Positions 16,164 to 41,190 of a stretch of DNA of 64,000 nt are shown here, piece by piece. Each line of letters begins with the position of its first letter. The first letter of the stretch is position 1. A model generated the notes under the pieces. It was not told the DNA's origin. It saw only the letters and a list, made by a program, of their open reading frames with translations, and ran no database searches. The stretch is from Balanoglossus misakiensis (taxonomy: Eukaryota > Animalia > Hemichordata): NCBI GenBank assembly GCA_040954595.2, contig CM082580.2, forward strand, positions 5,074,783-5,138,782. The letters are read 5' to 3'. The translations under genes and the position numbers were made by a program.

Positions 16164-18347
16164 CTATTTCGTCACATGATGTTCTTTCTTATCATGTATA
16201 TTCAACGATTTCCGACTGATGAAGGAAATCTGGCAAATGTCACATGACACCTCCGTAGGTGCACCGTGGGCCTTGATGTGTTGTCTCAGTTGTATATTCC
16301 AACAGCTCTGGTATTTGCACTTGCTGCACTTGTAAGGTTTTTCGCCCGTGTGCGTTCTCTCGTGCGATACAAGCTGCGCTCTCTTAGCAAACGCCAGGTC
16401 GCACCATTTGCATTTGAAAGGTTTTTCGCCAGTATGGATCCTCTCATGGTCTCTGCGATACTTTGAGTCTATGAACCCTTTGCCACAGAACTGACACTTG
16501 AACGGTTTGATGTTCAGATGCTTCTTCTTGTGGTTGTCAAACGATATCTTGCAGACAAACTGACTGCCGCACAACTCGCACAGAAACCTCTTCTGGCTCT
16601 TGGCCTTGAACTTCTTCCTGTGTGTTTGAGCGATGTGTTTGGCCAAATAGGCCTTGGATACACTCTTCCCGCAGATATGGCACAGTACCGGTACACTCAC
16701 CCGTGATGTCTTCCGGTGACGTTTCAGGTGGGTTTTGAAATCTAGTTCGAGCGCATACCTCCTGGTACAGTCTGTATGAGGACAGACGAAAACCTTCTCT
16801 GACTCGGAAGCGTGGCACCTCAGGTGGTGTCTTTCCAGAACAAACCTTCGGCATGCTGTATATTCACACTGGCCGCATTGAAAATCCCGCGGACCGTGCT
16901 TGACCTCCGCGTGGCGTTCCAGCAGTGACTTACTGGTTGTCTGGAAACTGCACTCTTTGCAAGCGAATGAAGTGCCATCCCTCTTTTCCTTCCTGTGCTT
17001 GATCAGATGTTGCAGGAGATTCCGGTTTGTGGGAAAACTCTGATTGGGGCACTTTTTACACGCAAAATGTTCGTTTTCCAACAACACAAACATGTCCTTT
17101 TTGTCGTCCAGCATGCTTTCAACCGTGGAGGCATCCAAATGTTCGGCACTTTCATACAAGTCATCCAAAACGTCATACTCGCTGTCACTGGCTCCATCAT
17201 CATTACCTCCAGAGCCATCTTCACTGTCTTTCATATCAAAGTCCCTGTCTTCCTTAGGATTTACTTGTTCCTCCTCTTCATCTGAGCTGCTGTTGTAATT
17301 CCACAAGTAATCCTCATCATCATCACCTTCCTCTTCCTTCTCCTCCTTATCATCTCTTCCTTGATTGACACCATCTCTTTGTTCACTGCTGTTACCACCT
17401 GCAACACCAACAGACGTTTGGTCCTCCTCCGACACAGATTGGCCATCCGCACTGGCCACTCCACGGGGCTTATCCTTGCCAACTGCATATTTCTTCCACC
17501 ATGGAACAAGTGTTTCCTTCATCCCCATAGATGCCTTCCTGCGTGGTCTGCCGTGCGCACCAAGTTCTGTCACTTGCTGCTCAGAAGTGCTTTCGACATC
17601 CTCAGTGCCTGTCATCGTTTCCTCACTATCATCTGCACTGCTTGCTGCTTGATCATCCCTGTCAATTAAATATCAGTAAACTTGGTGAACAAACTTGCAT
17701 CTACACTTACCAGTGTTCTCCCAAGGAATTTCTGATAGCATATTAGCTAATAACAATAGGTGTGATTTTTATGTTAATTTCCTATTGTTGCTAAAGTTAT
17801 GGGGCTACAAAACTGCTTTACTTTTTCAACTTGCCCTGTGTATGGACCTGTGGGTTCCCGGCATTACGGATACAGGGAGACCGTGTACACATGTAACGCC
17901 GTGAGCACTCAGACCCGCGGCCTGTACACAGGGCAACGGGTGCACTTATGTTGCTACACGTACGTAGTTTTATCAGTAATCTACAAAGAACTGACAAACG
18001 ACCACAGACACTCACCTATCTGCTGTGGGCTGTGAGACTTTTCCTGCTGCTTGCGTTGTCGTCATGTCCTGGTCCGATGTCAACCACTGCAGTGACTGCA
18101 GCGACTCGTCTATGTCTCCGTCCTCGACACTGGCACCGTGGGATACACATCGCCTGCATCTCTCGCAAAAATTCCGGTGTATATCAAGCAAATGTGCGGC
18201 AAATTCAGAATTTGGAAGGTTTGCAAAGTTAAACAGCTTTTGCTCTTTCCAACCAGTGAAAGAACTTCCAAGATAAATCTTTGAACTGTCACGTTTCTTA
18301 TAAGATGCTTTCCGTTTTACCGATGAACTCGCACTAGTGGCAGCCAT
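16164..18347 (-). CDS. C2H2 zinc-finger gene A (10 fingers) with ZNF653/692-like N-terminal exon
   Basis: First exon 18347-18016 (MAATS..KIYLG..W..EFAAHLLDIHRNFCERC; AG|GTGAGT) splices in phase 2 to terminal exon 17658-16164. The terminal exon has an acidic region, 10 C2H2 fingers and HTGEKP linkers. Confidence 0.85.
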
Positions 18348-18473
18348 TTTGGAGAGTGTGATATTCGCACGGAATTGTGGGATTGCCAGTGAGTCCCACA
18401 CAACGACGGCCCCAAGCCTGACGAGACCCACCCTTTAAAAAGGAAATTATGAAAAGTTTACTATTATACGTAC

Positions 18474-18571
18474 AATCGTAGAAGGAAGTCGACCGTTTTG
18501 GTTGCACTTCTTGTTTGAAGGCGTAATTGTAAACTGCACCATCGAGAATACTGGTCTCACCGGCTTCCCAT
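18474..18571 (-). pseudogene. Dead alternative first exon (paralog of 29608-29861)
   Basis: Reads ATG GGA AGC CGG TGA GAC CAG TAT..: a stop replaces the Gly of GDQY, followed by DQYSRWCSLQLRLQTRSATKTVDFLLRL and an intact TT|GTACGT donor. Confidence 0.7.
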
Positions 18572-19073
18572 TTTGCTGGCGAACTATTTGAACCCCGCGC
18601 CGGAAGTGGATCGATAACCGGGACGAACCATTGAACGCGCGGGGGGGGGGGGTAGTGGCTGGGGAAAACTGGGAACTTTTTCGGGGTGAAAGAAATATTA
18701 TGAGAAAAAAAACCGTTTCACCGCTTAGGGAAAGTTCAGTTATCTGTAGACGCCGTGTCAAGGAATCAAGCTATAAACGGATCCTACCAACCAAAAGGCC
18801 ATGGCCGCATCTTGCATAATCCCTGTTCATTAGTTTATTGACCTTGGGGATGCCGCAGCATTTGACAACACACTCTGTATAAATTTCACCTCTTGCTAGC
18901 TTTTTGGGGTGGCCATGGCATTCTGTGGATTATCGATTTTTTGACTAGTGGTAATAAAGCTACCCCCTACTTGACCCAAACACCACTGTGCTTGTGTTCT
19001 TTTAGACCGGAGACAGCAACTCAGTATAGCATGGACGTACTAAGCTATAAGTACCTCCATGCATGGTCCATGG

Positions 19074-19264
19074 TACTGTAAAACACTTGTTTTTCGCGAG
19101 TCAAAATTTTCGCGATATAGAGAGAGGCCACTGTTACGCGAGTATTAATTTTCGCGTTTTCTTTCACAACTATATGTACGCGAGTCTTTTTTTTCGCGTT
19201 TTTTTTTTGCCCTCGTGTATTTAGCGTAAATTTAATGCTCGCGAAAATAAAGTGTTTTACAGTA
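19074..19264. mobile_element. MITE with terminal inverted repeats (TACTGTAAAACACTT..AAGTGTTTTACAGTA), TA-flanked, Tc1/mariner-type
   Basis: TIRs are visible directly, with internal TTTTCGCG repeats. Confidence 0.75.
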
Positions 19265-20787: not shown

Positions 20788-23225
20788 CTATTTCGTCACG
20801 TGATGTTCCTTCTTATCGTGTATATTCAACGATTTCTGACTGATGAAGGAAATCCGACAAATGTCACATGACACCTCCGTAGGCGCACCGTGGGCCTTGA
20901 TGTGTTGTCTCAACTGTACGTTCCAACAGCTCTGGTATTTACACTTGCCACACTTGTAAGGTTTTTCGCCCGTATGCGTTCTCTCGTGCGACACAAGCTG
21001 CGCTTTCTTGGCGAACGCCAAGTCGCATGATTTGCATTTGAAAGGTTTTTCGCCAGTATGAATCCTCTGATGGTTTCTGACATGTCTGGCGTCTGTGAAC
21101 CCTTTGCCACAGAACTGACACTTGAACGGCTTGATGTTCAGATGCTTCCTCTTGTGGCTTTCGTATGTTACCTTATCGAGATACTGCTTGCCGCACAACT
21201 CGCACAGAATTCTCTTTTGGCTGCTGGCTCCAACCTCCCTGTGTTTCTGAGTTATGTGGCGCGACAAATAGCTCTTTTTTACACTCTCCCCGCAGATATA
21301 ACACAGTACATTTTCCATCTGGTGATGCTTTAGGTGACACTTAAAATCTTGTTTGAGCGCATACCTCATGCTGCAGTCTTTATGAGGACAGGCAAACACC
21401 TTTTCTGACTCAGAGGCGTGGCACCTCAAGTTGTGTTTATCCAAATTAGACTTGCGGTATGCTGCATACTCGCACTGGTCACACTTAAAATTAAGTGGAC
21501 GGTGTCTGGCCTTCACATGGTTTTCCAGCATTGACTTCATGGTTGTTTGGAAATCGCACTCATTGCAAATGAAAGAAGTGGTGCGGCTCTTTCCCTTGCT
21601 ATGCTTGAGCACGTGTTGCAGGAGATCCCGGTTTGTGGCAAACCTCTGACTGGGGCACTTTTTACACCCTAAACATCCATTTTCCAACACTTTTAACATT
21701 TTCTTTCTGTCATCTAGCATGCTTTCAACTGTGGAATCATCGAAATGTTCTGCACTTCCATCCAAGTCCTCGAAAGAGTCGTATTCGCTGTCATAGTCAC
21801 TGCTATCATCGTCACTGCTACCTCCAGAGCCATCTTCACTGTCTTCCATATCAAAGTCCATGTCCTCTGTAGGCCTTACTCGTTTCTCCTCTTCATCTGA
21901 GCTGCTGCTGTATTTCCACAAATCATCATCATCATCTTTCCCCTCCTCCTCCTCCTCCTCCACATCATCATCATCATCTCTTCCTTGACTGACACTATCT
22001 CTTTGTTCACTGTCGTTACCATCTGCAACACCAACAGACGTTTGGTCCTCCTCCGACACAGATTGGCCATCTGCACTGGCCGTTGCATGAGGCCCGTCAT
22101 TGCTACCTGCATATTCCTTCCACCACGGAATGAGTTTTTTGTTCATCCCCATAGATGCCTTCCTGCGCGGTCTTCCGTGCGCGCCAAGTTCTGTCACTTG
22201 CTGCTCAGAAGTGCTTTCGACATCTGGAGTGCCTGTGGTCGTTTCCTCACCATCCTCTGCACTGCCTGCTGCTTGATCATCCCTGTCAATTAAATATCAG
22301 TAAACTTGGTGAACAAACTTGCATCTATACTTACCAGTGTTCTCCCAAGGAATATCTGATAGCATATTAGCTAATAACAATAGTGTTCTCCCAAGGAATA
22401 TCTGATAGCATATTAGCTAATAACAATAGGAGTGATTGTTATGTTAATTATTCTATTGTTGCCGAAGTTGTGAGGCTACAAAACTGCAGCAAGGTTTTGC
22501 CTTGTAACATCGTGTGGGGACGTTTGTCGTCAACACACACAGTCACATTCGACTGTGTCAACATACCAGGCAAAACTTGAAAGGAAATTATGAAAAGTTT
22601 ACTATTATACGTACAATCCCCCCTGATGACTTGCATGCACACCGAGTTGTGTTATTTGCTGCTCGGCAGTGCTGTCGGCCTCTTCAGTGCTTCCAGCCTC
22701 ACCCTCCTCTTCACTGCTTGCCATTTGATCATCCCTATAGATGAAATATCAGTATCCTTGGTGATCGAAACCTACACACACACCAGACTAGAGTTCTCCC
22801 AAGGAATTTCTCTTAGCATAAATAATGGAGGTGATTGTTATGTTAATGATTTTTATTGTTTTGCAAAACAAAAGTGGCCTTTTGCTTTAATTGCTCTGGG
22901 GAAAACGAACACTTCTCAGTTCGTTGTGTTGCCATTTATTGTTTGTTTTCAAAATATTATCAATATCATGCCTTTTCACAAATTTTAACAGGAAAGTCCT
23001 GGAGTTCAAACACTAATGATCCTTTGTCCTCCTGTGAAACACTGCTGAACAGTCAGTCAGAGTAACTCACTCTCAGCAGTCATCTAAACCAAAAGTCAGT
23101 TATGAACTTCTTATGTTTACCTGCAGAGATTTGGTGGCTCTGGGGTTTCATCCCTATCTTTAGAAGAGTCCAATAATCGTTCAATGTCACCTGCAAATAG
23201 TGGGTGAGAAGAGGCAAGTTCATAC
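20788..23225 (-). CDS. C2H2 zinc-finger gene/terminal exon B (10 fingers); own first exon degenerate
   Basis: Terminal exon 22282-20788 has a phase-2 acceptor and an intact ORF. An upstream 105-nt phase-2 exon at 23225-23121 encodes YELASSHPLFAGDIERLLDSSKDRDETPEPPNLC. Confidence 0.8.
22336..22427. repeat. 46-bp tandem duplication in intron
   Basis: AGTGTTCTCCCAAGGAATATCTGATAGCATATTAGCTAATAACAAT occurs twice; the paralogous intron near 17711 has a single copy. Confidence 0.85.
22615..22734 (-). other. Chimeric 120-nt phase-2 cassette exon (remnant of a deleted fifth ZF unit)
   Basis: The acceptor and DDQMASSEEEGEAGSTEEADSTAEQQITQLGVH are homologous to the terminal-exon 5' ends. They are fused to a first-exon-type donor TT|GTACGTATAATAGT. 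Confidence 0.55.
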
Positions 23226-23617
23226 CTACAAAAAAAAAAAAAAAATTGGTATATAAAACCAAAATTGCAAGACTAGCTCTAGTGGCAGCCATTTTGGAGA
23301 GTTTGATATTTGGCTGGTACCCTGCCTCGGTGACAAACACCAAAGAGGCAGGTAAACACAAACCGCTATATTTAGAATTGTGGAATCTGATTGGCTAATA
23401 AATGAACGTTCTATAACTTCTGGGCTACATTCAATCTGTCGCGTTTCTTGACATTCATTTTTACTCTTCCCGAATATACATATTTTTAAAAAAACCAACA
23501 GTTTATGATGGAAGTGAAGCTAAAATCAATACAACTACTGACACAAATGTACGTAAGTTTTACAACAGACATGCCCATTTGGCTGGTATGCGCATTAGCC
23601 CACTTCCGGGAAAGTGT

Positions 23618-24044
23618 TAGTCTCGGTTACCCAGAGCCCTCTGCTTCTTCCGTTAGGCACTCCAGAAAGAGGGTCTGGGGAAACCCGGTAGACAAATCGC
23701 CGGGCGGAATCGGGACAACTGCGATGCATGACGGGAGCTTAATATTCCAAAATGGCGACGTCCTGCGCGCGAACCTCACGGCCGACATGTATGTCATACG
23801 ATAAAGAAAACATGCTGAGAAGTGCTAGACCTGCTAAAACTGTCTACAAATTGAAAAGAGAGAGAGAAGTTTGGCAAATAGTTTTCTAATATCGTCATAT
23901 CATAATATCGTATCGAATATTAAGCTCCCGTCATGCATCGCAGCTGTCCCGATTCCGCCCGGCGATTTGTCTACCGGGTTTCCCCAGACCCTCTTTCTGG
24001 AGTGCCTAACGGAAGAAGCAGAGGGCTCTGGGTAACCGAGACTA
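23618..24044. mobile_element. Non-autonomous DNA transposon with 130-bp TIRs and 9-bp TSD (Academ/AcademH-like)
   Basis: TIRs at 23618-23747 and 23915-24044 are nearly perfect and begin with TAGTCTCGG. The TSD GGAAAGTGT lies at 23609-23617 and 24045-24053. Confidence 0.85.
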
Positions 24045-24302
24045 GGAAAGTGTCAAAAAACTAACACTTTTCAAAATGGCGGTCGGCGTTTATCTGCGTC
24101 TTCGTGACGCGTCTTTTTGCCAAGTCACGTGAGACGCAGTGTTCAGTGAAATTTGATATTCGCACGGATTTATGGGATTTCTGAGCTCGTCACGCATGCG
24201 CGTAGTGAGTCCCACACAACGACGGCCACACCCAAACGTAACCTGCTGACGAGTCTCACCCTTTAAAAAATGAAAGTATGAAAAGTTTACCATTATACGT
24301 AC

Positions 24303-24446
24303 AAACGTAGAAGGAAGTCGACCGTTTTGGTTGCACATCTTGTGTGAAGGCGTGATTGTAAACTGCACCATCGAGAATACTGGTCTCCCTCGTTATATTC
24401 TATAGTAAATATCACTGGCTTCTTGATCGCACTGTTACCCTGCCAT
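24303..24446 (-). pseudogene. Dead alternative first exon (paralog of 29608-29861)
   Basis: KKPVIFTIEYNEGDQYSRWCSLQSRLHTRCATKTVDFLLRL ends in an intact donor. The homologous ATG is out of frame (ATG GCA GGG TAA) after internal deletions. Confidence 0.65.
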
Positions 24447-27474: not shown

Positions 27475-29861
27475 CTATTTTGTCATGTGATGTTCCTTCT
27501 TATCATGTATATTCAATGATTTCTGACTGATGAAGGAAATCTGGCAAATGTCACATGACACCTCGGTTGGTGCACCGTGGGCCTTGATGTGTTGTCTCAA
27601 CTGTACGTTCCAACAGCTCTGGTATTTGCACTTGCTGCACTTGTAAGGTTTTTCGCCCGTATGCGTTCTCTCGTGCGACACAAGCTGCGCTTTCTTGGCG
27701 AACGCCAAGTCGCATGATTTGCATTTGAAAGGTTTTTCTCCAGTATGAATCCTCTGATGGTCTTTAAGATTTCTGGCCTCTACGAACCCTTTGCCACAGA
27801 ACTGACACTTGAAAGGCTTGATGTTCAGATGCTTCTTCTTGTGTTTTTCAAATGACACCTTACAGACAAACTGCTTGCCGCACAGCTCGCACAGAAACCT
27901 CTTCTGGCTGCTGGTCTTAAACTTCTCCCGGTGTTTTCCAGATACGTGTTGCGACAAAAAGCGCTTTTTCACACTCTCCCCGCAGATATAACACAGTACA
28001 TTTTCGTCCTGGTGACCCTTCAGGTGATTTGTCAAATCTTGCTTGAGTGCATACCTCATGCTGCAGTCTTTATGAGGACAGACAAAAACCTTTTCTGACT
28101 CAGAGGCGTGGCACCTCAAGTAGTGTTTATCCAAATTAGACTTGCGGTATGCTGCATACTCGCACTGGTCACACTTAAAATTAAGTGGACGGTGTCTGGC
28201 CTTCACATGGTTTGTCAGCGCAAACTTATGGATTGTTTGGTAATCACACTCTTTGCACGTGAAAGAAGTGTTGTGGCTCTTTCCCTTGCTGTGCTTGATG
28301 ATCACATGTTGCAGGAGATCCCTGTTAGTGGAAAACCTCTGACTGGGGCACTTTTTACACCCTAAACATCCATTTTCCAACACTTTTAACATTTTCTTTC
28401 TGTCATCTAGCATGCTTTCAACGGTGGAGTCATCGAAATGTTCTGCACTTCCATCCAAGTCCTCGAAAGAGTCATATTCGCTGTCATAGTCACTGCTATC
28501 ATCGTCACTGCTACCTCCAGAGCCATCTTCACTGTCTTCCATATCAAAGTCCATGTCCTCTGTAGGCCTTACTCGTTTCTCCTCTTCATCTGAGCTGCTG
28601 CTGTATTTCCACAAATCATCATCATCATCTTTCCCCTCCTCCTCCTCCTCCTCCTCCACATCATCATCATCATCTCTTCCTTGACTGACACTATCTCTTT
28701 GTTCACTGTCGTTACCACCTGCAACACCAACAGACGTTTGGTCCTCCTCCGACACAGATTGGCCAGCCGCACTGGCCGTTGCACGAGGCCCGTCATTGCT
28801 ACCTGCGTATTTCTTCCACCACGGAATGAGTTTTTTGTTCATCCCCATAGATGCCTTCCTGCGTGGTCTTCCATGCGCACCAAGTTCTGTCACTTGCTCC
28901 TCAGAAGTGCTTTCGACATCTGGAGTGCCTGTGGTCGTTTCCTCACCATCCTCTGCACTGCTTGCCGTTTGATTATCACTGTGGAAAAAAATCAGTATCC
29001 TTGATGATCAAAGTTGCTTCTACACTTACCAGTGTTCTCCAAAGGAATTAATGATAGAACATTAGGTGCGATTGGAATATTAATTATTATTGCCGAAATT
29101 CATGAGCAACGGCTGTTATGCTCAGGGGAGAACACATACTGCCTACACGCGTAGCAATTAAGGATGAATGGTCAGTAAAATTGAAGTATTGACATTTCTT
29201 TTAATTGTGCACAACTTCTAAAACTGTAGAAAGTGCTGGTGGTTCAAGCTCTCTTGAACTGCCATCCTAAGTGAAACCCTAGGCTCATGTAATACGGTCA
29301 GTGTAATCAGTGTTCCATATAGTTGTCCAAAAAAATGTCATATGTGAATGTTTACCTGCAGAGTTTTGGTGGCTCTGGGGGTTCATCTCTCTTTGTAGAA
29401 GAGTCCAATAATTGTTTGATGTCGTCTGCAAAAAGTGGGTGAGAAGAGGCGTGTTCGTACCTAGAAAGAATCAGAAATTTGTTCTAAGTCAAGTGCTGAA
29501 TAACTCTATCAAATTTTCCTGATATTGTACATGACACATTTTTAATGATACTACCGGGGGTGGTTGAAATGGAGAAGTCTGAAAAGAGTCTACGACTATA
29601 TACGTACAACCGCATAAGGAACTCGGCCGTTCCGTTTGCGCTGCAGTGGAGACGAGACTGCAATCTGCGCCAACGAAAATACTGGTCTCCAACTTGAAAT
29701 AACTGCTGCGATTTAGGCAATCCACGTTTCGTCCCCACAGTCTTCTTGGCACATTTTGGTCGTGAAGTTTCTTTGGTACTAGCATGTTCTATGGTAAAAA
29801 TCGCTGGTTTCTTGGAGGCGCGACGGGAACGCTTCAGAGAAGTCTTCTGCTCGTCCTCCAT
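27475..29861 (-). CDS. C2H2 zinc-finger gene C (10 fingers), 3 exons
   Basis: Exons at 29861-29608 (..FQVGDQYFRWRRLQSRLHCSANGTAEFLMRL), 29460-29356 (YEHASSHPLFADDIKQLLDSS..) and 28978-27475. All junctions are phase 2 and in frame. Confidence 0.85.
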
Positions 29862-31850
29862 TTTGCTGGCGAACTTTGACCCCGCCAGAAGTGGATCATT
29901 GGCAGGGATAAACCATTTGTCGGGGGCGGGGATGAACAGGCTCCAAAAGGCAGCTGGGGCCAGGGCAGATAGATGTGTTATGCTATATTTTAATCAGCTC
30001 GGTTGTGGCTAGCTCAAAACAGTGGATAGCCATTTGTTTAAGCAGTCTGTGGTTTGAGTGTGGAATGAATAATTTTTTTTTTCATGAGTAGTATTCACAA
30101 TGAGAAAACAATGTGTTTGTATGTGTATAACTTAAATCTTTATTATGCTTTATTTCGAGCAAAGTGTAAGCAGTATTTTGTGACCCCCATAGGTTCAAGC
30201 ATGGCAATCTTTTATTGACATCCGTTGATGTCGCACTGAATGCCAACACAGAAAACATACAACAAATAAACAAAAACAAAATAACAATCCAAAAATTGAA
30301 CAGAGAATATACTACGATAACTGAGTCTTCTGAAATGTCTATTTCTACCTAGTGGTTTATCACATCTGTCACAGTCATAAAGACAGTTGTAGAGCTCATA
30401 TGCACAATATAACTGGTATACTATATTTGCAATTCTACTTTGCAAATATGTGCATCAGTTGTCCTTATACACTCAACTCCACTGACAGCCCAAAATCACA
30501 GACCATAATATTGCATCGCAGATATATTGAATGCCCATTACAAAAAAATAGCCAGACTTGTTCATAATTAAAGGAGTTGCACTAGTTTGACAAAAACATG
30601 AAATATACATATAATGTATAAATACTCTGGAATGCAGGTGAAGGTGAAAATATACCAAAGAAAAAAATACGTTGCTCTATAGTCCTACAACTAAGATTCA
30701 CTTCGCAACACACTTTTTGGTGGCTGGTATAATGGGGTAATATGTTGCCTTATCATTCAGTCTACCCATATACATTGTATATATGCAGCACACAGGTCTT
30801 TTGATACAATGCAACCAACATATTGCACATATTAGAAGTGTCACAAAATGTAACCGACCAATTTACATATTTTTGACTGGCAGTCCTTGTTCTTGGCAGT
30901 AGCCAAGACTTTCTTAGTTTTTACAGTTGAGTCCAGACGTGGTAAATTTCTGCTCATGGCATTAGGTGGACATAAATTTACTGATACCTATTGATATGCA
31001 CATGAACATTATACTGCCTTATACAGTATACTAAAATACACTGCCCCAGTGTCACAGTGACATTGAAAGAAATTGGGGGCATTTCAACGTGAATTGAACA
31101 ATTTGTGATTCATGAGCAGACTAAAGCAAACTGAGATGATGTAGGTATCACTATGTAAATACAAGTCTCAAGTCCTTATTATAATGCCATCATAGAAGGC
31201 AATCTGCTTTCACATGTTGGTGACAGGAAAATAACTAAAAATACAGAGAAAGTCCTCTGTGAAGGAAATTGAGTTCATGACCCAAGTGTCTAGCACACAC
31301 TGCAAAAATTATACAATAATTGTACTGTCATTTCTGAAAAATAGGCAACTGGAATGCAATTTGTGAGACTCAGAAAGTGCACTGCCAACTGTGCCAGCTT
31401 AGCATGTAAGGTGCAGATTGGGCCAAAAAAGTAGCTCTGGAAATGATAAAGAAGCAAATGAAATCACCACAAGTTGGCCATCTTGGATTGCATTGCAAAA
31501 GCAAATAGCATTCATGATTTGAAGAAGTGTTAAGTAGTTTTCACATCTTACTGCCAACTCTTACTGAGAAATTCAGAATATCAGTAATTACATGTATTCT
31601 CTAGTCTTACCCTGTCAGAATAATTTATATGACATGATTAATATGCATAAACATTATTGCATCATTTTTCATTCAAAAGTAACAACACAGTGAGTTGGCA
31701 AAGGCAACTGAACAGGCAGACATTTTCACGATGATTAAAAGTTAGGTATGGCACAGTACATTTAAAAACGTACACAAATGTCTGAAACTAAAAATGCCCA
31801 ATACATGTACCCCCCCCCCCCACCTGGACCTGTGCAATGTATAAACTCGG

Positions 31851-33372
31851 TTACACGTCTGTGTTATGTTGTTTCTTCTGATGAATGCTCAGTGCTTTCT
31901 GACTGATGAAAGAAATCTCGCAAACGTTACACGACACCTCGGTGGGCGCACCGTGGGCCTTGACGTGATGCCTCAGTTGGATATTCCAACAGCTCTGGTA
32001 TTTGCACTTGCTGCACTTGTAAGGTCTTTCGCCCGTGTGCGTTCTCTCGTGCGACGACAGCTGCGCCTTTTTGGCGAACGCCAGGTCGCACAGCTGGCAC
32101 TTGTAAGGTTTCTCCCCGGTATGAATGCGCTCGTGGTCCTTCACGAACTTGCTGGCCGAGAAACCCTTGCCGCAGTACCGGCACTTGAAGGGCTTGATGT
32201 TGTAGTGCTTCTTCATGTGGTTCTGGAAGACGCCGATGCTCTTGGAGGAGTACTGCTTGCCGCAGATCTCGCACAGGATCGTCTTCTTGGCCTCGCCCGA
32301 CTCCTCCTCCCCTCCCCCGCCGTGCTCCCGCTTCACGTGCTGGCTCAGGTACGAGCGGCTGACGTTCTTGCCGCAGACGGGGCACGTCTCCGTCTTGTTG
32401 TGCGTCCGCATGTGGCACTTGAGGTCCATCTCCATGGCGTACTTCATGTTGCAGTCCTTCCACGAGCAGGCGTAGATCCGCTCCGAGTCGGGCGCGTGGC
32501 ACCGCAGGTAGTGGCTCTGGTACATGTGCTCCAGGTACGTCTCGTAGTCGCACTCGCCGCACTTGTAGTTCATGGGCCCGTGCTTGGCCTTGTGCCGCGC
32601 CAGGTGCTTCTTGGTGTTGGCGCACCAGCCGCAGTCGCCGCAGATGTACTGGGTGATCTTCTTCCTCTTCCTGTGCGCGTTCATGTGACGCAGCAGCCTC
32701 CTCCCCGTGGTGAAGATGGCCCCCGAACACCTCTTGCACTTCAGGCGGCCGTCCGCCAACGTCTCGAAGAAGTCCTTCTTCTCGGCTAGCATACCCTCCA
32801 CGGTGGCATCATCCAAGTCTTTCAAAATTTTAACCGCGTGCCCACCCGCCGGTTTGTTCTTACTTTCTCCGATCTTACCATCAACAACAACATCCTCATC
32901 ATCTTTTGCATCTGCGTCAGCATCCAAAGCATCGTCCCTCTCCTGCTCCGCTTTATCCTCGTCGCTCAAACAAAAATCGCTGTCTTTGTCCTGTCTCATC
33001 TTTTCCATCTCGTCCCCCGAGCTGCTGCTGAACTCGTAGTCTATTTCATCGTCCTCGTCGCGAGGAACACGTACAGCTATGGGAACCCCGGCCGAGGTGG
33101 CAACGGCTCTCTGCGCGTAATTCCTCTCTAGGCTAAACGGAACCGAGCTCACTGACTGGCCCTCCTGCGTCCCCGCCTGGCTGGCCACGCGCGCGTGCGG
33201 CTTATTCTTCGGTTTCTTCTTCCACCAGGGGATCAGCGTCCTCTTGATCATCAGCGAGGCCTTCCTGCGAGGTCTGCCGTGCGCTCCGAGTCCCAAGTCT
33301 TGTTCCTCACCGGCACTGCCCGCCTCTTCAGCGTCTATGGTCTGCATGGAAGAATTCATTACTTGATCACTT
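31851..33372 (-). CDS. C2H2 zinc-finger terminal exon D (10 fingers), most divergent paralog
   Basis: A phase-2 acceptor at 33372 (SDQVMNSS..) opens an intact 502-aa ORF with the GAHGRPRRKAS..IPWWK motif and 10 C2H2 fingers. Confidence 0.88.
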
Positions 33373-33790
33373 CTGTGAACGGAAGGGGCAGTGAATACCC
33401 AAAATCAGTTCAAGCACGCCCATAGTGGCACTCCTATTGTACAGGAACACGTTGAGGTTCTATGCGCCTTGGCGACAGATTTTCAGAAAATTTTTACTTC
33501 TCCAACCTTTTAATGTTTTGCTATATGGTAAAACCTAACAAGCCCTGCCTTGAATATGTATATAGTCTTGCATCCAATCAAGTACATGAACTGTGCGATT
33601 GACTTTCTCAGCAAGTGTATCAGGTCATTCACATGCAAAATACATACATGACGCTAGGTTGTCTTTTTCGTCAGACCCCCAAAATGCGGGATAGATACTA
33701 AGCCAGGGGTATACTGGTAGCTATAGTTTGTGGAATTTGAGTAGAGATAAAGCTCAACTTCTACATAGTTTGTAATGGGCAACAGCTCAC

Positions 33791-33904
33791 CTGTCAGGTT
33801 GATGAAATGACCCGTCTGCAGACAGCGTGGGTTGCTCAGCTTCGGAGGATGGTCCATGGCTTTGTTGAACATTAAACATCTTAATTTGCGATGAGAGAGA
33901 AATT
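33791..33904 (-). CDS. ZF locus cassette exon, 114 nt, phase 2-2
   Basis: CAG|..|GTGAG boundaries; encodes ISLSSQIKMFNVQQSHGPSSEAEQPTLSADGSFHQPD. Confidence 0.55.
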
Positions 33905-34022
33905 CTGCAGAGAAAACAAAAAAAGTAACCAACTTTTGATATCTAGACTACAGCTGTTGGTAACAGCTAAAAGCATGTATCATCACTGCACACAATCACG
34001 CAGGTTTTTTCATGACACTTAC

Positions 34023-34133
34023 CGTTTTTTCAGTGGCTCTCCGATTTCTCGTCTTTCCTGGTCTTCGTATTCCGGCCACTGACATTCCGGCCACGATTCA
34101 CGTTCTGTTTTGAGATGCAGGTGCTCAAGGTAC
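34023..34133 (-). CDS. ZF locus cassette exon, 111 nt, phase 2-2
   Basis: TAG|..|GTAAGT boundaries; encodes YLEHLHLKTERESWPECQWPEYEDQERREIGEPLKK. Confidence 0.6.
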
Positions 34134-34326
34134 CTAACAAGACAGAAATTTTTATTAAATAAAAGGGAAAATGTTCAAAAAATCAGAAGCATAATTTTAT
34201 GCCGGAGTATGCAGCACAGACTTCGAGACCAGGAATCCACACGTTTTCCCCGATGGCTCACCAAAATACAAGGCTAACGGACATGCATCATACAATTGTG
34301 GAAATCTGAATGACAACACAACATAC

Positions 34327-34425
34327 TTCACTTTCTGCAGCTCTGTACTGTCTTTGGTTCTGTGCGCGTCACTTTCGGAAGAGGTATCAGTCTGTTCAGT
34401 TCCCAAGCCTTGACGGTCTTTGTAT
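34327..34425 (-). CDS. ZF locus cassette exon, 99 nt, phase 2-2
   Basis: CAG|..|GTATGT boundaries; encodes YKDRQGLGTEQTDTSSESDAHRTKDSTELQKV. Confidence 0.6.
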
Positions 34426-34741
34426 CTGAACAGGTATAATGCAAAACAGATTGGATGAGACACTATTAGTATTGTGTGGCATACAAAAACAATTAGATAC
34501 ATTGTAATCACTCTTAGGCATTTGACCACATGGCTGTATGGCTATACACACAGAAAACACACATGTGCAGTAGTAAACACAACAGGCACTCACATATTAC
34601 CAGTACTATAATCATATTCATAAGTACATTGGTAGCTCTTGTTGTTCTGTCCGATGTTCCCTATCTCACTTGTAGCATACAAGCAAACCTCATGCCCATA
34701 CCCCCTAGGGCATATGCAAGTCCAAATGACACAACACTCAC

Positions 34742-34834
34742 TTCTTTTTCTGTGGCTCTGCCATCTCTCGCCTTTCACAATCTTCACTTTCCGACTCCGT
34801 CTCCCCTCTTCCAACATCTTCATATTCGTCGTAT
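34742..34834 (-). CDS. ZF locus cassette exon, 93 nt, phase 2-2
   Basis: CAG|..|GTGAGT boundaries; encodes YDEYEDVGRGETESESEDCERREMAEPQKK, similar to the 34023-34133 exon. Confidence 0.6.
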
Positions 34835-35135
34835 CTGTAAAGTTTACATAAATCTGTGGAAATGTCTACTCACAATAGAAACAATAACAATAGTGACAAT
34901 TGACTTCCGTATTGCATTGTTGTGGGAAATCAAAAGAAAGTTCCATGGCCTAATTTTAGACAAAGCTGTCCCCTTTTCAAGTTTTTGGAACCCATATTTT
35001 TTTTCCTTACTTGAATATACACAGTTTTCACAATTTGCAAATGTTTATACATATTATGCATATGGTTTTGTGGTCAGTTCTATGTATACACATAGTCCAG
35101 ATAAACAATGACATTTTTATGGTGCAAGACATTAC

Positions 35136-35258
35136 CTTTCCCTTTTCACGTTGTGTGATGAGATCCCTGGGGGTGGTACCACAGGGAGTTCGAGTATATG
35201 TGACGGCTCTCTTCTCGGCCCAGTTGATAAATCCTCTGCACCAGACATGCAAGAGTCT
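35136..35258 (-). CDS. ZF locus cassette exon, 123 nt, phase 2-2
   Basis: CAG|..|GTAAT boundaries; encodes DSCMSGAEDLSTGPRREPSHILELPVVPPPGISSHNVKRE. Confidence 0.55.
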
Positions 35259-36262
35259 CTGTAACAATAACAATGAAGAGAGACCAAATCAAATAAATGT
35301 GAAAATATACCACTTTGGTGCAATAGCAAAAATTAAAAGATATTACCGGTACATTTCAACGAAAGTGTCCCAAAAATTGGTGCTGTGACACAGACTTGGC
35401 TTAGGGTCAAGTGGCTAAATGTTACGGAGTAACGGTCTCAGAACAAATCTTTGTTGGGCCTTCCGTATTTTCATCTCTTGTCAAAATAACGGTGTTACCA
35501 TTGGCTGGGTTCAATAAGAAATCAACGGGCCAGGCAGACTTTAAAATGGGATGGTCAGATTAGCACTTTTACAATAACATGACTGCTGCACACAAGTCGC
35601 CATACACTATGAATTTTCACCGTACCCTGATCAAATGCTGTAAATTTACAATGACCTTACAGTACAGCATACTGGCTCATACACTATAGGCAAATTGTGT
35701 GGTAGAAAACACACTTTGAGTCTACCCACCTATCAGCTTCACCCGAAGATGCGTCTGACATTCCTGGGTTTTCAGAGTTTTCTTCTGCCACAACCCGGCC
35801 TTCACTGTTTTGCCCAGCGGGAAAACTATTGCCTTCCCAGGTCAATTTGACCGGGAATACTTGAGGATCTACATGTCTTTTTTTCAACAGGCCATAAAGA
35901 AATGCAACAAGTTAGACAAGAACATTGGGCCGGGAAAGTTCCGTCCTTCATAATGATTGTCACTATCTATGATTATTGTTAGGCAAGGGAAAAAATCCTT
36001 TTCCTCAAATTCAATATGTCTTTTTTAATCACTCATTAATTTGCTTTGCAAAAATATACTGAACATTCTTTTTTTCTCCATGGCTTTATCAGATATAAAA
36101 CGAAGCACCAATATTCCTTCCTGTCACAGTGTACACTACACCTGCATTCTACAGATTTGACCTGTTTCTTTTTGCAATTGACAATGAAGTTTAATAGACT
36201 CCTTTTCAATGAACATGACTTTGAGATACTGAAGAGACGTGTACAAATAATGGAACACTCAC

Positions 36263-36361
36263 CTAGTCCCTTGTTGCTCAGTTTCTTGACTTGCACGGTA
36301 ATGACCTCCTTCTGACAAGGGATCTGACTGCAATGACTTGGGGTCCTGATGTTTATAGTAC
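36263..36361 (-). CDS. ZF locus cassette exon, 99 nt, phase 2-2
   Basis: CAG|..|GTGAGT boundaries; encodes YYKHQDPKSLQSDPLSEGGHYRASQETEQQGT. Confidence 0.6.
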
Positions 36362-36986
36362 CTGTAAAACATACGATTACGGTACAGATCAGCACTAAGA
36401 TTCTAACTGGGCTACCTTTGGGATAATCCTAGGCATCTAACTGTCAATCTTTGTACAAGTTGCTTGCATGAATGATTTGAAGTGGGAGCCAAAAGACTTG
36501 GGAACCAAGCAACCACTTCCTGTTGGAATATGCAGAAACACATCACAGGACATGATTGAATGATGAACAATAAGTCCCCCCCCCCCCCGTAATCAACAGG
36601 TCCTGCCCTAAGGCTCGGCCAAGAACAAGATGGTGTCTCATGAATGTTCTTATGTTTACATGTGTCGAGAATATGCCATCTACCATGATATTTGGGGAAT
36701 ACTAAATTATACCCTGCCAAAATTTTAGCGTCTAATACAATGTACATATAGACAGGAAGCTTCACTCCGCGATCGGGGCTATTTTCGCTTTGTCGGCGTA
36801 TGTTGCGCGCTTCTTCCGGGTCTACTTTAGATACACGGCGAGTGCAACAGACGCAGAGACCACGCACACTCATACCGCTTATTTTCCGAAAGCGAATTTC
36901 TGGTGTGCCAATGCCCGCGCCCGTTCAGGAAGTTCATGTCGGGTCACCAGCCAGGCTGTGATATAAATTTTTATCTGCAGACTTAC

Positions 36987-37210
36987 GAATCAATCATCAC
37001 CATTGCCAATTCGGGACTGGAAAGCCCCGTGAGCCCCTTCAACTCCATCCACCTTCCGATCTGATTGCCGATGTATATTTTGCAACGATTTTTTTGAAGG
37101 TTACTCTCCCGCCTTCGCAACCTCTTAGCTTCGGCTGTTTTACGCGGGCGTCCTCGCCCCCGGCTCTGCTGCTTTTCGCAATTTTCGCCGACTTCACTGA
37201 TCGACGCCAT
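36987..37210 (-). CDS. Alternative first exon: AT-hook plus ZNF653/692-like N-terminal domain
   Basis: Encodes MASISEV..RGRGRPRKTAEAKRLRRRESNLQKNRCKIYIGNQIGRWMELKGLTGLSSPELAMVMIDS and ends in the phase-2 donor TC|GTAAGT. Confidence 0.75.
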
Positions 37211-38135
37211 ATTGTTTCAGTCTTTCTACACGAGCATGCGCATATCGTCGCATTTTCTGTATCCACAGATTTATACAGGCGTCGCAATGCAGTCATGTTT
37301 TGATCTATCTGGCTGCAGTTTTTACATGTTTCATAAAACGAAATAAATACCCATCCACTTTTTGTAGAATAGAAATTTTATTGAATCGTTAAAGCGACGT
37401 CGGCTGTCACTTCCTTGCATTATTTTCATGATTTTAATTTCATAAACATATATTGCCTTTGGTTTATTTACATCCGGCCCAGGGAAAGTTAAATTTTAAC
37501 CGAGTTTAAAGCAGGGGCAGCAAAGCCGCATGGGTAATCCCCTATGAGTGGTCCTCTACATGGTTAATCAGTAAAGTAAAAGTAAATTGTAATATCATGT
37601 GAAGTATCAACCACACTGTTTGCAATGATGTACATTGTAGCGATTACACTTTGCACAATACTTTGACTTGCAAGCAACTGTGTCCATAGACATTGTTCAA
37701 TATTCTGATGTTTCTGCAAGTACATTTTAATAACAGTGACTTGGTGCAGACAAGATTAGTCGTGAATAACTCAAGATATGTAACCTCGATAAAACAGCCA
37801 AGAATGTCTGTCACTGTAAAGCCCTAATAATTAGAGATGCTCATTTCTGCACACATGTAACTTGCTCTATGTCCATTCATTCTCATACCTTACAACACTA
37901 CATGTGACCATACTCTTTGTTCTCTTGGGACATTATCTATGATAATGCACTGGTACCAGTGCAATATCTGGATATTGCACTGCACCTGGCATAATAAGAT
38001 TCACTACGACAAACAAGATAGCTATGACAGGAGGTACTTTAATTCATGCAAAAAATACAAAGCAAATTAGTTGTTATCCATTTTGAAGGATATGCTGCCT
38101 CCGGCGGGGAGAACAGCTTTCACACACGGATTCAC

Positions 38136-38443
38136 CTGAAAGCTTGATTTTTTCGACGTACCAAAACTTCCTTGAAGCACTTTGCTGACTTCGAACTGTT
38201 GCTCGAGACTTGTACGCTGAAAAGAGAGCTGCTACTTACAGAAGAGGATGTGTGCAGTGGGGGCTGCATTTTCGCCAAGTCACATTCCGTGACCGTTGGG
38301 TTATGTACGCTATCTTCGACGAGGCTATCAAAATCTTGGAAAATCCAGTCCATATCGCCACCGTCATCACCTTCGCTTTCGCTTGGGTGTCGGAACGTGC
38401 TCTGGGTAATGAAAAGCTCGTGCTCGTCGCTACTTTCGGCCAT
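38136..38443 (-). CDS. Alternative first exon, acidic (possibly Crypton-transposon derived)
   Basis: Kozak context ACCATGG; encodes MAESSDEHELFITQSTF..KNQAFR with phase-2 donor AG|GTGAAT. CCAAT boxes and a hairpin lie upstream. Confidence 0.55.
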
Positions 38444-39257: not shown

Positions 39258-39559
39258 CTTGTGGACTGGAGAGTTGCTGTAAGATCTCCGCTCGCGTTTC
39301 CCAATGTCCGACTGTCGCCCTCATTTTGCGCCTGATGTAGTGGGACATCGACGTGGGGAAAACAGTCGCGACATTTTCCCCTGTGCAAATCCAACAAATG
39401 TTCAGCAAATTTTCCGTTAGACGCTTTCGAATAGTGGACTGCCTTCGCTTTCTTCCACATTTCAAGCGTATCGTATAAGTAGATTCTGGTTTTGTCCCTC
39501 CTTTTCACCCAAGCGGGTGTCTTTTCACGATCTCCGACACAGATTATGGTCGCCGCCAT
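39258..39559 (-). CDS. Alternative first exon: ZNF653/692-like domain with HxxxCxxC (paralog of 18016-18347)
   Basis: Start context AAGATGGCGGC; encodes MAATII..RRDKTRIYLYDTLEMWKKAK..NGKFAEHLLDLHRGKCRDC.. with phase-2 donor AG|GTGAGG. Confidence 0.72.
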
Positions 39560-39642
39560 CTTGTCTGTTGTTTGACAGCACACTGCCTTATGGGATTGAC
39601 TGTTCATTTCCCCCATAGACAATGATCGATGGCCACGGCCAT

Positions 39643-39936
39643 GGTAGCGTTGAGCTAAATATTGCTATTTTATAACTTTCAGCGAGCAGAATCGCTTTAA
39701 GTACAGTCAGAACAAGGTCTGTTTGTGCACAGGCTAAATTTTCGTCCCGGCAAGTCCATTGATTCTTTTCGGGAGGTCAAAAATAGCGCCCTCGGTGGTG
39801 ATTTTGATAAAATTCATGCCAAAGTGTTGGGAATTTTGAACGCATCTCAAGATGCTATTTCCAAATACCCTACATATGATCTGGTAAATCCTACTGAACA
39901 TCAACTAAGGTCTCAAAATATTAGGCAATGCACTAC
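39643..39936. mobile_element. Interspersed repeat/MITE copy 1 (GGTAG..CACTAC ends, Kolobok-like)
   Basis: Highly similar to 44671-45031. Confidence 0.65.
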
Positions 39937-40978
39937 TTTTTTATGAACTGTAAGTTGTACTGAGCGACTAGTAGCTCTGCTTGGCACATGATGGTCACCA
40001 ATAGTGAAGTATGCCTTGCTTCCAATCCCGAGTTGCAACAAATAAAAATGGTGACGCACTTTGAACATCCCTGGTTCAGAAGTCATCGGATTACAATCAA
40101 AGTACACACACACACACACTGTTTAAGGGAGCCATCATTATTTATGGCCTGGGGACACAAAGGAATATGAGAGGGGTCTCTCAAAAATGGAAAGCAGGAA
40201 GGAGTAGGGTTTCAAAATAAAGCGAAGAGGAAGAAGGTGTGATTCAACCTGATTACTGAAGTAGACTAGTGAACATGTTTGTACTGGGCTCATGCTGTAC
40301 ATGACCACAAGGCTTCCCATAAAACTCATGGAATTACACACATAGTCTGAGCCTAATGTATATTTGGTCTGATTATAGCACGAAGCTGCTGGGCCCCCTT
40401 ATCACTATTGATGGTCAAGTCTAATGAATACACCATGCACCTGACCTGTCAATTTTTAATGTTAAATGTTTTCACTGTATCTGGAAGAAAAACTCTGTAA
40501 TGTTTACAAAAAGAATATTGTCTGAACCATTTTCTTGCACAAGTTAACCCAAAACACATGCTTCAGATTGGGTTTTATGTTACATGAAAACTTCAACTCT
40601 ACCTAAAATCAACTCTGATGTAATAACATGCGAGAAATGGATATCTGGTGAAGCACACATACCTTTACAAATTAGTGGTCATTTTTATTTCTATTACAAA
40701 ACGTGCAGTGAAGTTAGCTGCTATTTCCTTACATGCCGCATTATGATTGGTCGGTTTATAATTAGTTTGGAGCCAGGTGCATGACCTGCACTGGTTGATG
40801 TTTTGATGGAGGGGGTGTCATTGAAAATTTGTTAGAAATGGGGGGGGGGGGGGGGTACTGAGATTCTGCATGCTTGGCGGGAGAGGGTGTTACTCAAAAT
40901 TTTAGTTTCAAGTGAAAATCCTTCAACCCCCCCCCCCTCCCCCGGCCGTAAGTAATGGCGGCTCCCTAAATCACATAC

Positions 40979-41190
40979 CAGTCGATCAGGAACGTTGCAA
41001 CTTGATGGTGCGTTTTCAACGAGCGTGTTCGTTTTATATGATTCCACCGACCGATTTCAGAAAATATATTTATGCTGCCTGCTTGTTTTCGGGCCCGTGC
41101 ACGCTTCCGTTCTGTCTCACTCAACCGAGGACGGCCACGCGTCCGTTTCTGTTCCGGACCCACATGCAGGTCCAGGGTGGACTCCGCCAT
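40979..41190 (-). CDS. Alternative first exon: AT-hook plus ZNF653/692-like N-terminal domain
   Basis: Encodes MAESTLD..KRTRGRPRLSETERKRARARKQAGSINIFSEIGRWNHIKRTRSLKTHHQVATFLIDW and ends in the phase-2 donor TG|GTATGT. Confidence 0.72.

What the first reader, a model, noticed from the sequence alone, without database searches (positions are those of the whole stretch)
16164..41190. Combinatorial zinc-finger locus: variable first exons x cassette exons x alternative 10-finger terminal exons, all phase 2
Seen: six intact ATG first exons (41190, 39559, 38443, 37210, 29861, 18347) and two dead ones. There are about nine 93-123 nt cassette exons with lengths divisible by 3, and four terminal C2H2 exons (acceptors at 33372, 28978, 22282, 17658). 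All lie on the minus strand, and every donor and acceptor I read is phase 2, so any upstream module joins any downstream one in frame. Known: Drosophila lola, mod(mdg4) and broad vary their 3' zinc-finger exons, while clustered protocadherins and UGT1A vary their first exons. Inference: this locus could vary both ends, pairing different N-terminal domains with different DNA-binding arrays. I do not recognise this as a described system.
Basis: partly seen in the sequence, partly recalled or inferred. Interest (0 to 1): 0.9.

Follow-up and report, generated by a model that had tools for sequence, protein, structure and literature searches.

The report
Zinc-finger genes recruit transposon first exons
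Four neighbouring zinc-finger gene copies in a probable acorn worm likely took their first exons, again and again, from a family of jumping genes, each exon encoding a small module predicted to pair like a bacterial DNA-binding fold, so the first copy likely has several interchangeable front ends, while mixing of fronts and ends between the copies is possible on paper but untested.

Summary
The exons are real: six ATG first exons, nine predicted 93-123 nt internal exons and four 10-finger terminal exons, all phase 2; 20 of 20 downstream joins stay in frame. The shared phase is inherited, not a design. Five first exons encode one unnamed domain that begins Kolobok transposases; that transposon carries promoter, ATG and a phase-2 donor, so each sense insertion into intron 1 gives a ready in-frame first exon. 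Two exons keep a Kolobok left end. The five are not local duplicates (AU p=6e-11). The domain is predicted to form a ribbon-helix-helix-like homodimer. Terminal exons B, C and D are tandem duplicates that each start with their own first-exon copy, and the nearest relative (Ptychodera flava) has two separately named genes. Best reading: a tandem cluster with first-exon turnover, in which copy A has up to four alternative first exons. Cross-copy splicing is untested; copy C, apparently selected yet without an intact first exon, is its best candidate. Varying both ends is known (fruitless). New: recurrent capture of transposon first exons at one locus, and a predicted RHH-like domain in animal zinc-finger proteins.

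The parts
40979..41190 (-). First exon F41190, likely the ancestral one: AT-hook-like stretch plus RHH-like domain, phase-2 donor
   Evidence: 54% identical to the N-terminus of P. flava zinc-finger protein P0066, sister to it at 99/89
39687..39700 (-). TTAA plus Kolobok-type left end (AGCGATTCTG), 141 nt upstream of the 39559 ATG
   Evidence: first 10 bases equal the left end of Xenopus Kolobok subfamily A1 in PMC6004289
39258..39559 (-). First exon F39559: RHH-like domain plus H/CxxC motif, first exon of a Kolobok-like transposase gene
   Evidence: 60% identical over the whole exon to transposase-like P0002 of P. flava, sister at 100/97
38136..38443 (-). First exon F38443: open, acidic/serine-rich, no RHH-like motif, origin unknown
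   Evidence: no Pfam match, no match to the RHH-like profile
37389..37406 (.). Candidate right end of the element that starts at 39696 (TTAA plus imperfect inverted repeat); weak
   Evidence: best TTAA-flanked pair in 15-46 kb, but 18 of 100 shuffles scored as high
36987..37210 (-). First exon F37210: AT hook plus RHH-like domain
   Evidence: Pfam AT_hook E=0.002; homodimer model
36263..36361 (-). Internal exon, 99 nt, 2-2; likely the common second exon of copy A
   Evidence: matches P0066 residues 73-98 directly after its first exon, shuffle p=0.012 uncorrected
35136..35258 (-). Internal exon, 123 nt, 2-2
   Evidence: matches P0066 residues 109-128, shuffle p=0.001 uncorrected
34742..34834 (-). 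Internal exon, 93 nt, 2-2; duplicate of the 34133 exon
34327..34425 (-). Internal exon, 99 nt, 2-2
34023..34133 (-). Internal exon, 111 nt, 2-2
33791..33904 (-). Internal exon, 114 nt, 2-2, strongest splice sites of copy A
31851..33372 (-). Terminal exon A: acidic linker plus 10 C2H2 fingers
   Evidence: about 55% identical to B, C, D in the finger region
29608..29861 (-). First exon F29861 of copy B, divergent RHH-like domain
   Evidence: profile E=2e-4
29356..29460 (-). Internal exon of copy B, 105 nt, 2-2
27475..28978 (-). Terminal exon B, 10 fingers
24303..24446 (-). Dead copy of F29861 in copy C (stop after three codons; two deletions); an ATG at 24508 would open the homologous frame to the donor
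24245..24266 (-). TTAA plus AGGG left end of the inserted element in copy C (paralogue of 18438); absent from copy B
23302..24160 (.). About 850 bp insertion with the same 9 bases on both sides and an internal 130 bp inverted repeat; splits the promoter of the captured exon in copy C
23272..23310 (-). Remnant of an F18347-type first exon (ATG at 23292); reading on into the 23225 exon is out of frame by one base across a long T run
23121..23225 (-). Internal exon of copy C, 105 nt, 2-2, duplicate of the 29460 exon
   Evidence: 4 silent and 8 replacement codon changes against B
22615..22734 (-). Chimeric 120 nt 2-2 exon: start of a terminal exon joined to the donor of a dead first exon; probably duplication debris
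20788..22282 (-). Terminal exon C, 10 fingers, intact, no intact conserved first exon of its own
18474..18571 (-). Dead copy of F29861 in copy D
18420..18438 (-). TTAA plus AGGG Kolobok-type left end, 91 nt upstream of the 18347 ATG, where similarity to copy B stops
18016..18347 (-). First exon F18347 of copy D: RHH-like domain plus H/CxxC motif; captured exon that replaced the dead one
   Evidence: 45% to multi-copy transposase-like P0070, same clade at 97/83
16164..17658 (-). Terminal exon D, 10 fingers

Best explanation
This is a tandem cluster of four zinc-finger gene copies whose first exons were likely captured, one at a time, from Kolobok DNA transposons, with copy A likely using up to four alternative first exons and the copies mostly, but not provably, spliced separately. 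Mechanism: the left end of this transposon family carries a promoter, an ATG, an exon for a roughly 35-residue strand-helix-helix domain and a phase-2 donor (shown in other animals' copies). The host gene itself begins with an old exon of this kind (41190), so its next acceptor is phase 2 (shown). Any new copy that lands in intron 1 in the sense direction is therefore an in-frame alternative first exon without further mutation (inferred). Three more first exons accumulated in copy A; in the ancestor of copies C and D a new one landed about 45 nt behind the old donor, and in D it replaced the old exon, which died (sequence shows the junction; the order of events is inferred). The internal exons are likely a mostly constant acidic linker. 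The proteins would be transcription regulators with a predicted ribbon-helix-helix-like dimerisation or DNA-binding head and a 10-finger array with variable fingers 2-7 and constant fingers 8-10. Copy C is the exception that may borrow a first exon from upstream.
For: Domain family: 209 hits, 150 listed; of the 54 proteins of 150 aa or more, 7 carry C2H2 arrays and about 11 continue into a transposase-like body by eye, with a D..D..DxxH..E pattern in P0107, P0151, P0157, P0189 (signature as in PMC9587614). Phase: of 88 short hits in which the motif was located (97 short hits in all), 23 stop one residue after it (1 and 3 at the next two positions) and 18 more read like a run-on through a GTnnGT donor, as a phase-2 donor predicts. 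Direct DNA: 3 of 6 loci from other animals (L001-L003) begin sharing sequence exactly at TTAA|AGG with unrelated flanks, then promoter, ATG, the exon and, in the two that reach it, AG|GTAAG in phase 2. In the window, TTAA|AG ends lie 141 and 91 nt before two of the ATGs (0.12 expected per 700 nt); one equals a published Kolobok end over 10 bases; the other sits where copy B stops matching C and D. Five window domains are rejected as one clade (p-AU 6e-11; 52 rows, 66 columns). All 7 profile matches at E<0.01 in 64 kb are on the gene's strand inside the locus, no transposase body remains, five of the seven are open, whereas L001-L003 are each broken. CpG o/e is 1.0-1.4 at five of six first exons (0.73 at 29861) against 0.24-0.56 in introns and the 3' region of A. 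B, C, D duplicate first exon and terminal exon together. P. flava has two separately named genes with consecutive accessions, each with its own N-terminus and array, duplicated independently of A-D (100/100); P0066 reads first exon, then matches to two internal exons in order, then the array. Dimer model of F37210 residues 24-74: score 0.36, best of 3 controls 0.01; runs agree in at least 97% of contacts, pLDDT 81; mark reached by 21 of 30 solved pairs and 0 of 23 single chains (eukaryotes 17 of 29, animals 7 of 16, only 1 of 7 without an older solved relative; 0 of 30 single chains); best contacts 43-47 with 47-43 of the partner, as for a two-chain antiparallel strand, and helix 65-73 against the partner.
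Against: No transcript of this locus was seen, so use of any exon is inferred. High CpG and open frames also fit young, untranscribed insertions. F41190, F38443, F37210 and F29861 show no TTAA|AG end within 700 nt, so their transposon origin rests on family membership (and F38443 has none). The right end for the 39559 element is not significant (18 of 100 shuffles), and the 39696 end lies inside a 310 bp stretch repeated at 44663-45044 with shared flank, which blurs that boundary. The whole-chain order test of internal exons against P0066 was not significant (29 of 150 permutations as high). Copy C has no intact conserved first exon yet shows 21 silent to 31 replacement changes on its own branch (20% silent sites; p=5e-4, no correction for transition bias), which 'separate genes' explains poorly. 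P. flava adjacency is inferred from accession numbers and contig length, its DNA was not seen, and gene models miss rare isoforms. The dimer score is just above the mark (0.32) and may reflect memory of solved folds; the tree has few columns.
Confidence: 0.6

Rival explanations
1. One fruitless/lola-like locus varied at both ends: any upstream first exon, through the internal exons, is joined to any of four terminal zinc-finger exons.
For: 20 of 20 joins are in frame. Copy C appears selected but lacks an intact first exon. CpG stays low across the gaps between copies, as continuous transcription would give. Dimerising head plus alternative finger ends is the logic of BTB loci (fruitless).
Against: Each of B, C, D was duplicated with its own first exon, unlike arrays of bare terminal exons. 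Poly(A) signals follow every stop. Acceptors of C and D score lower (1.8) than those of A and B (6.2, 4.2) that would have to be skipped. P. flava models show no shared front. Phase 2 is explained by ancestry.
Confidence: 0.2
2. Four ordinary tandem genes with one first exon each; the exons at 39559, 38443 and 37210 are untranscribed transposon relics, and copy C starts at an internal ATG, uses the ATG at 24508, is split by a homopolymer assembly error, or is a young pseudogene.
For: Only F41190 has a counterpart fused to the same array in P. flava. F39559 is closest to a transposase on another chromosome. Relics of this family are common in animals. The T run before 23225 is one base off frame; an in-exon ATG exists at residue 44 of exon C.
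Against: All relics lie in sense orientation inside the locus and none elsewhere in 64 kb; the three extra exons are open from ATG to donor while the transposase body is gone; dispersed copies L001-L003 are broken; copy D shows that a captured exon can become the only open first exon.
Confidence: 0.17
3. The first exons arose by local duplication of one ancestral first exon, as in protocadherin or UGT1A clusters.
For: Five share one domain and donor position; the dead exons are local duplicates.
Against: One clade is rejected (p-AU 6e-11); each of three has a closer relative in other genes or species; no DNA similarity among the six; no CTCF-like motif near them (8 matches in the window, 6.0 expected).
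Confidence: 0.03

Closest known systems
Host-transposase fusion genes by transposase capture (Cosby et al., bioRxiv 10.1101/2020.05.07.082677; abstract and section 5 read)
   Same: A DNA transposon in an intron supplies an exon and its own splice site, first as an alternative isoform, later often as the only one; transposase DNA-binding domains joined to zinc-finger genes.
   Different: There 8 of 9 traced sites were acceptors and the transposase is added at the C-terminal side of a host domain. Here the element brings promoter, ATG and donor and becomes the N-terminus, and capture recurred several times at one locus from different lineages of the family.
Kolobok DNA transposons (PMC9587614, background and passages read; PMC6004289, passages read)
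   Same: TTAA target, RR ends, DDE transposase with DxxH in the relatives; one window end equals a published Xenopus end over 10 bases.
   Different: The published transposases usually begin with THAP; these begin with an unnamed strand-helix-helix domain. Only first exons remain in the window.
Insect fruitless, and lola, mod(mdg4), broad (fruitless: PMC11943076, PMC3245913, passages read; the others recalled)
   Same: Several promoters, a dimerising N-terminal module, several zinc-finger terminal exons in a row.
   Different: Those loci have one constant BTB block and bare terminal exons. Here the N-terminal module is itself the variable part, and first exons are interleaved with terminal exons.
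Clustered zinc-finger families with an N-terminal accessory exon: KRAB-ZNF, FiNZ-ZNF (Wells et al., bioRxiv 10.1101/2022.11.29.518450; passages read); ZNF692-like proteins
   Same: Small accessory-domain exon upstream of one large finger exon, tandem duplication, variable middle fingers. A bird protein named ZNF692-like carries the same domain.
   Different: No KRAB, BTB, SCAN, ZAD or other Pfam domain in the first exons except an AT hook; no dN/dS above 1.
Ribbon-helix-helix transcription factors (Arc, MetJ, CopG recalled; plant TCP as RHH-like, bioRxiv 10.1101/2022.11.22.517060, passages read)
   Same: Predicted homodimer with a short two-chain antiparallel strand, two helices and a glycine turn; alternating basic and hydrophobic residues on the strand.
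   Different: No significant sequence match to an RHH family; that paper lists RHH among DNA-binding classes absent from the mammalian classification.

Membership tests
Kolobok-derived exon | TTAA target with RR left end | tested here: met
   Met for F39559 and F18347 and for family copies L001-L003; not found for the other four first exons
Kolobok-derived exon | Matching right end with TTAA duplication | tested here: inconclusive
   One candidate pair 37393/39696; 18 of 100 shuffles as good
Kolobok-derived exon | Family linked to a DDE transposase with DxxH | tested here: met
   Read by eye in relatives P0107, P0151, P0157, P0189; no Pfam model matches; no transposase tree was built
Intact Kolobok transposon in the window | Transposase body present | tested here: not met
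   11 transposase bodies against the window: one hit at E=0.08 only
Ribbon-helix-helix domain | Homodimer with two-chain antiparallel strand and two helices | tested here: met
   Predicted only, for one of five exons: score 0.36 against 0.01, contacts 43-47; helices 51-61 and 65-73
Ribbon-helix-helix domain | Sequence or fold match to a solved RHH | tested here: inconclusive
   Monomer fold search best Z 3.3, ruled by a long helix; PDB profile best E=0.26; 1 of 99 members hits PF10723 at E=0.01 (that it is an RHH family is recalled)
Ribbon-helix-helix domain | DNA binding through the strand | not testable with these tools
   needs binding assays
fruitless/lola-type locus | Constant BTB exons | tested here: not met
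   No BTB in any first or terminal exon
fruitless/lola-type locus | One upstream block spliced to several terminal finger exons | not testable with these tools
   In frame on paper; no transcript data at hand
fruitless/lola-type locus | Terminal exons without first exons of their own | tested here: not met
   B and D each have an open first exon directly upstream; C has two broken ones
Protocadherin/UGT1A-type variable first exons | Several first exons with donors upstream of a constant block | tested here: met
   Copy A: four first exons before six internal exons; use not shown
Protocadherin/UGT1A-type variable first exons | First exons are tandem paralogues with a shared promoter element | tested here: not met
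Tandem C2H2 gene cluster | Duplicated units holding first exon, terminal exon and poly(A) signal, under purifying selection | tested here: met
   dN/dS 0.07-0.08 in fingers 8-10, 0.45-0.55 in fingers 1-7 among B, C, D

The most novel reading that the evidence does not exclude
A self-extending combinatorial transcription-factor locus in an acorn worm: Kolobok transposons keep donating in-frame first exons that encode different ribbon-helix-helix heads, these are spliced to any of four 10-finger arrays (up to 20 head-array pairs, more as heterodimers), and the heads, taken from the transposases themselves, let the host recognise or block the very elements that supplied them.
Probability: 0.15. 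Interest if true: 0.9.

Novelty: new variant of a known kind. Interest (0 to 1): 0.62.

Why it matters
It shows a simple route by which arrays of alternative first exons can arise without duplication: a transposon whose left end is a ready-made first exon in the host's reading phase, with a caught-in-the-act replacement in copy D. It also points to an unannotated domain, spread over hemichordates, echinoderms, molluscs, cnidarians, fish, amphibians and birds, that heads both Kolobok transposases and zinc-finger proteins such as ZNF692-like, and is predicted to be a ribbon-helix-helix fold, a class not counted among mammalian DNA-binding domains. If the exons also mix across copies, it would be a deuterostome counterpart of fruitless/lola built from other parts.

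Tried and rejected
Sequencing runs: none was listed for 28000-37500 (no RNA holder listed), so no reads were laid. No whole genome is held. Word-based searches with the N-terminal half of exon B and fingers 9-10 of exon A found nothing, although the P. flava relatives are in that collection, so these blanks say little. The protein atlas did not answer (7 tries), so F38443 has no look-alike search beyond. Monomer models gave no strand and the fold search no clear match; PDB, Pfam and PHROGs profiles gave nothing significant for the domain. CTCF-like motif (consensus recalled): not enriched. Inverted-repeat scans: nothing significant. Positive selection: no region with dN/dS above 1. Exon-order test against P0066: not significant. 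A further candidate exon at 35804-35730 (75 nt, 2-2) has a poor acceptor and was left out of the nine. Loci L004-L006 were weak matches and were not aligned. Hits P0006 and P0138 look spurious (repeats). Part of the output was cut from view. Literature: searches (0 papers) listed no paper that names this domain or an RHH in animal transposases or zinc-finger proteins; searches listed none on this locus or on serial first-exon capture; I saw listings only for these, most subscription journals are not held, and I opened no supplement (the Kolobok alignments in the supplements of PMC9587614 and PMC6004289 may already show the domain).

Full report
Observation. Six exons run open from an ATG to a GT donor with lengths of 3n+2. 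Four terminal exons of about 500 codons start at phase-2 acceptors and hold 10 C2H2 fingers each. Nine short exons of 93-123 nt are open and 2-2. Splicing any first exon to any downstream terminal exon keeps the frame in 20 of 20 cases. All of this is read from DNA; I saw no transcript.

Organism. The closest named relatives are from Ptychodera flava, with others from Glandiceps and sea cucumbers. Identity of the finger arrays to P. flava is 44-51%, so the window is likely another acorn worm. This is inference from homologues.

Layout. Self-comparison shows that B, C and D are tandem duplicates that include upstream DNA. Each begins with a copy of the 29861 first exon, open in B and dead in C and D. 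B and C share the 105 nt second exon. Copy A is older (about 55% identity to the others in the fingers) and has four first exons ahead of six internal exons. The tree of arrays puts the two P. flava proteins on one side and A-D on the other (100/100), so both lineages duplicated the gene on their own. The P. flava proteins have consecutive accessions, different names, isoform numbers that restart, and isoforms that differ by one residue: two genes, each with its own front. One of them, P0066, has an N-terminus 54% identical to the 41190 exon, then stretches like the 36361 and 35258 exons (shuffle p 0.012 and 0.001, uncorrected for 33 comparisons), then the array. That makes 41190 the likely ancestral first exon and the internal exons a likely constant linker; the test of the whole exon order was not significant.

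What the first exons are. Five of six share a motif with no Pfam model. A profile found 209 relatives. Among the 54 longer ones, 7 have C2H2 arrays, 7 ZSWIM3_N, 2 KRAB, and about 11 continue, by eye, into a transposase with the D..D..DxxH..E pattern given for the Kolobok group in PMC9587614. The 39559 exon is 60% identical along its length to one such P. flava protein on another chromosome. In a tree of 52 domains the five window copies fall in five places, and holding them together is rejected (p-AU 6e-11). Three loci from other animals start to agree exactly at TTAA|AGG, with unrelated flanks, and go on through a promoter, an ATG, the exon and a phase-2 donor. TTAA targets and RR ends define Kolobok (PMC9587614). 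In the window, TTAA|AGCGATTCTG lies 141 nt before the 39559 ATG and equals the first 10 bases of a Xenopus Kolobok left end in PMC6004289. TTAA|AGGG lies 91 nt before the 18347 ATG, where copies C and D stop matching copy B. No transposase body is left in the window. The sixth exon, 38443, has no known relative here.

Why everything is phase 2. In the family at large the donor follows the motif in phase 2: 23 of 88 short gene calls stop one residue after it and 18 more read like a run-on through GTnnGT, and L002 and L003 show it directly. A host gene that starts with such an exon has a phase-2 acceptor next, exon duplication keeps 2-2 symmetry (34834 and 34133, 29460 and 23225 are duplicates), and new insertions fit at once.

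Are the extra first exons used? In favour: all 7 profile matches in 64 kb lie in the locus on the gene's strand; the three extra exons of copy A are open while the rest of their elements is gone, and the three dispersed copies from other animals are broken; each sits in a CpG-rich patch (o/e 1.0-1.4) between depleted introns, as unmethylated promoters in a methylated gene body would (inference); and in copy D a captured exon is the only open first exon. Against: young relics would look similar, and only 41190 is conserved in P. flava. I put use of at least one extra exon in copy A at about 0.7.

Do fronts and ends mix across copies? Nothing shows it. Each copy has poly(A) signals after its stop, and the acceptors to be skipped are the stronger ones. 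The open case is copy C. Its first exon is dead, its captured exon is cut down to about 20 coding bases and its promoter split by an 850 bp insertion, yet its branch has 21 silent to 31 replacement changes (p=5e-4 without correction for transition bias; 5 to 2 in fingers 8-10). It may borrow the 29861 exon or copy A's front, or use an ATG at 24508, an ATG inside the terminal exon, or a first exon that is one base off frame across a T run.

The domain. Two copies of F37210 residues 24-74 fold as a symmetric dimer, score 0.36 against 0.01 for the best control, with the calibration and cautions given under the best explanation. The surest contacts pair residues 43-47 with 47-43 of the partner and set helix 65-73 against the partner's strand and first helix. 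I read this as ribbon-helix-helix topology; it is a prediction for one exon, and searches of solved structures neither confirm nor exclude it. Plant-TFClass lists RHH among DNA-binding classes absent from the mammalian scheme, yet a bird ZNF692-like protein carries the domain. Among B, C and D fingers 8-10 are nearly fixed (dN/dS 0.07-0.08) and fingers 1-7 vary (0.45-0.55), with changed recognition residues. The likely product is a dimeric DNA-binding regulator with exchangeable heads; a role against transposons, as proposed for other zinc-finger families (bioRxiv 10.1101/2022.11.29.518450, passages read), is speculation.

Comparison and verdict. Transposase capture with the element's own splice site is known (bioRxiv 10.1101/2020.05.07.082677), mostly through acceptors. 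Variation at both ends of a zinc-finger gene is known from fruitless. Serial capture of promoter-bearing first exons from several lineages of one transposon family at one locus, with a visible replacement, did not appear in my searches (listings only), nor did a name for the domain. Verdict: observation confirmed, interpretation partly supported, new variant of a known kind, interest 0.62.

Noticed in passing
window 9844-13070, + strand: FBXO30/40-like gene (zf-TRAF_2 and F-box) converging on copy D.
   Followed up: partly
window 58975-59358, + strand: Exon of a kinesin motor gene.
   Followed up: no
window 42250-42672, + strand: Exon with a mucin WxxW domain, about 1 kb upstream of the first zinc-finger exon on the other strand.
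   Followed up: no
window 39635-39948 and 44663-45044: About 310 bp repeated at 86% identity, spanning the Kolobok-type end before the 39559 exon; the second copy lacks the exon.
   Followed up: partly
window 23302-24160: Insertion with a 9 bp duplication (Mutator-like by that feature, recalled) and a 130 bp near-perfect inverted repeat inside.
   Followed up: partly
window 50744-50886 and 54629-54953 (also 61352-61562): Palindromic, MITE-like repeats; the second starts at TTAA|AGGG. A similar end lies at 16115 just after the stop of copy D.
   Followed up: no
window 46038-46217 and 48450-48520: Pentanucleotide microsatellites.
   Followed up: no
P0038 / P0153: The second P. flava zinc-finger protein has two copies of the domain in tandem.
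   Followed up: partly
P0003, P0056, P0034, P0116, P0013, P0011: The same domain is joined to KRAB (tailed frog), ZSWIM3_N, PRY/SPRY (fish) and a vertnin-named protein (limpet), so it has been captured many times.
   Followed up: partly
window 27900-28700 against 21200-22000: Copies B and C are nearly identical in the linker (dS 0.08) but not in the fingers (dS 0.2), which suggests gene conversion.
   Followed up: partly
window 35730-35876, - strand: Possible tenth 2-2 exon (75 or 147 nt) with a good donor and a poor acceptor.
   Followed up: partly
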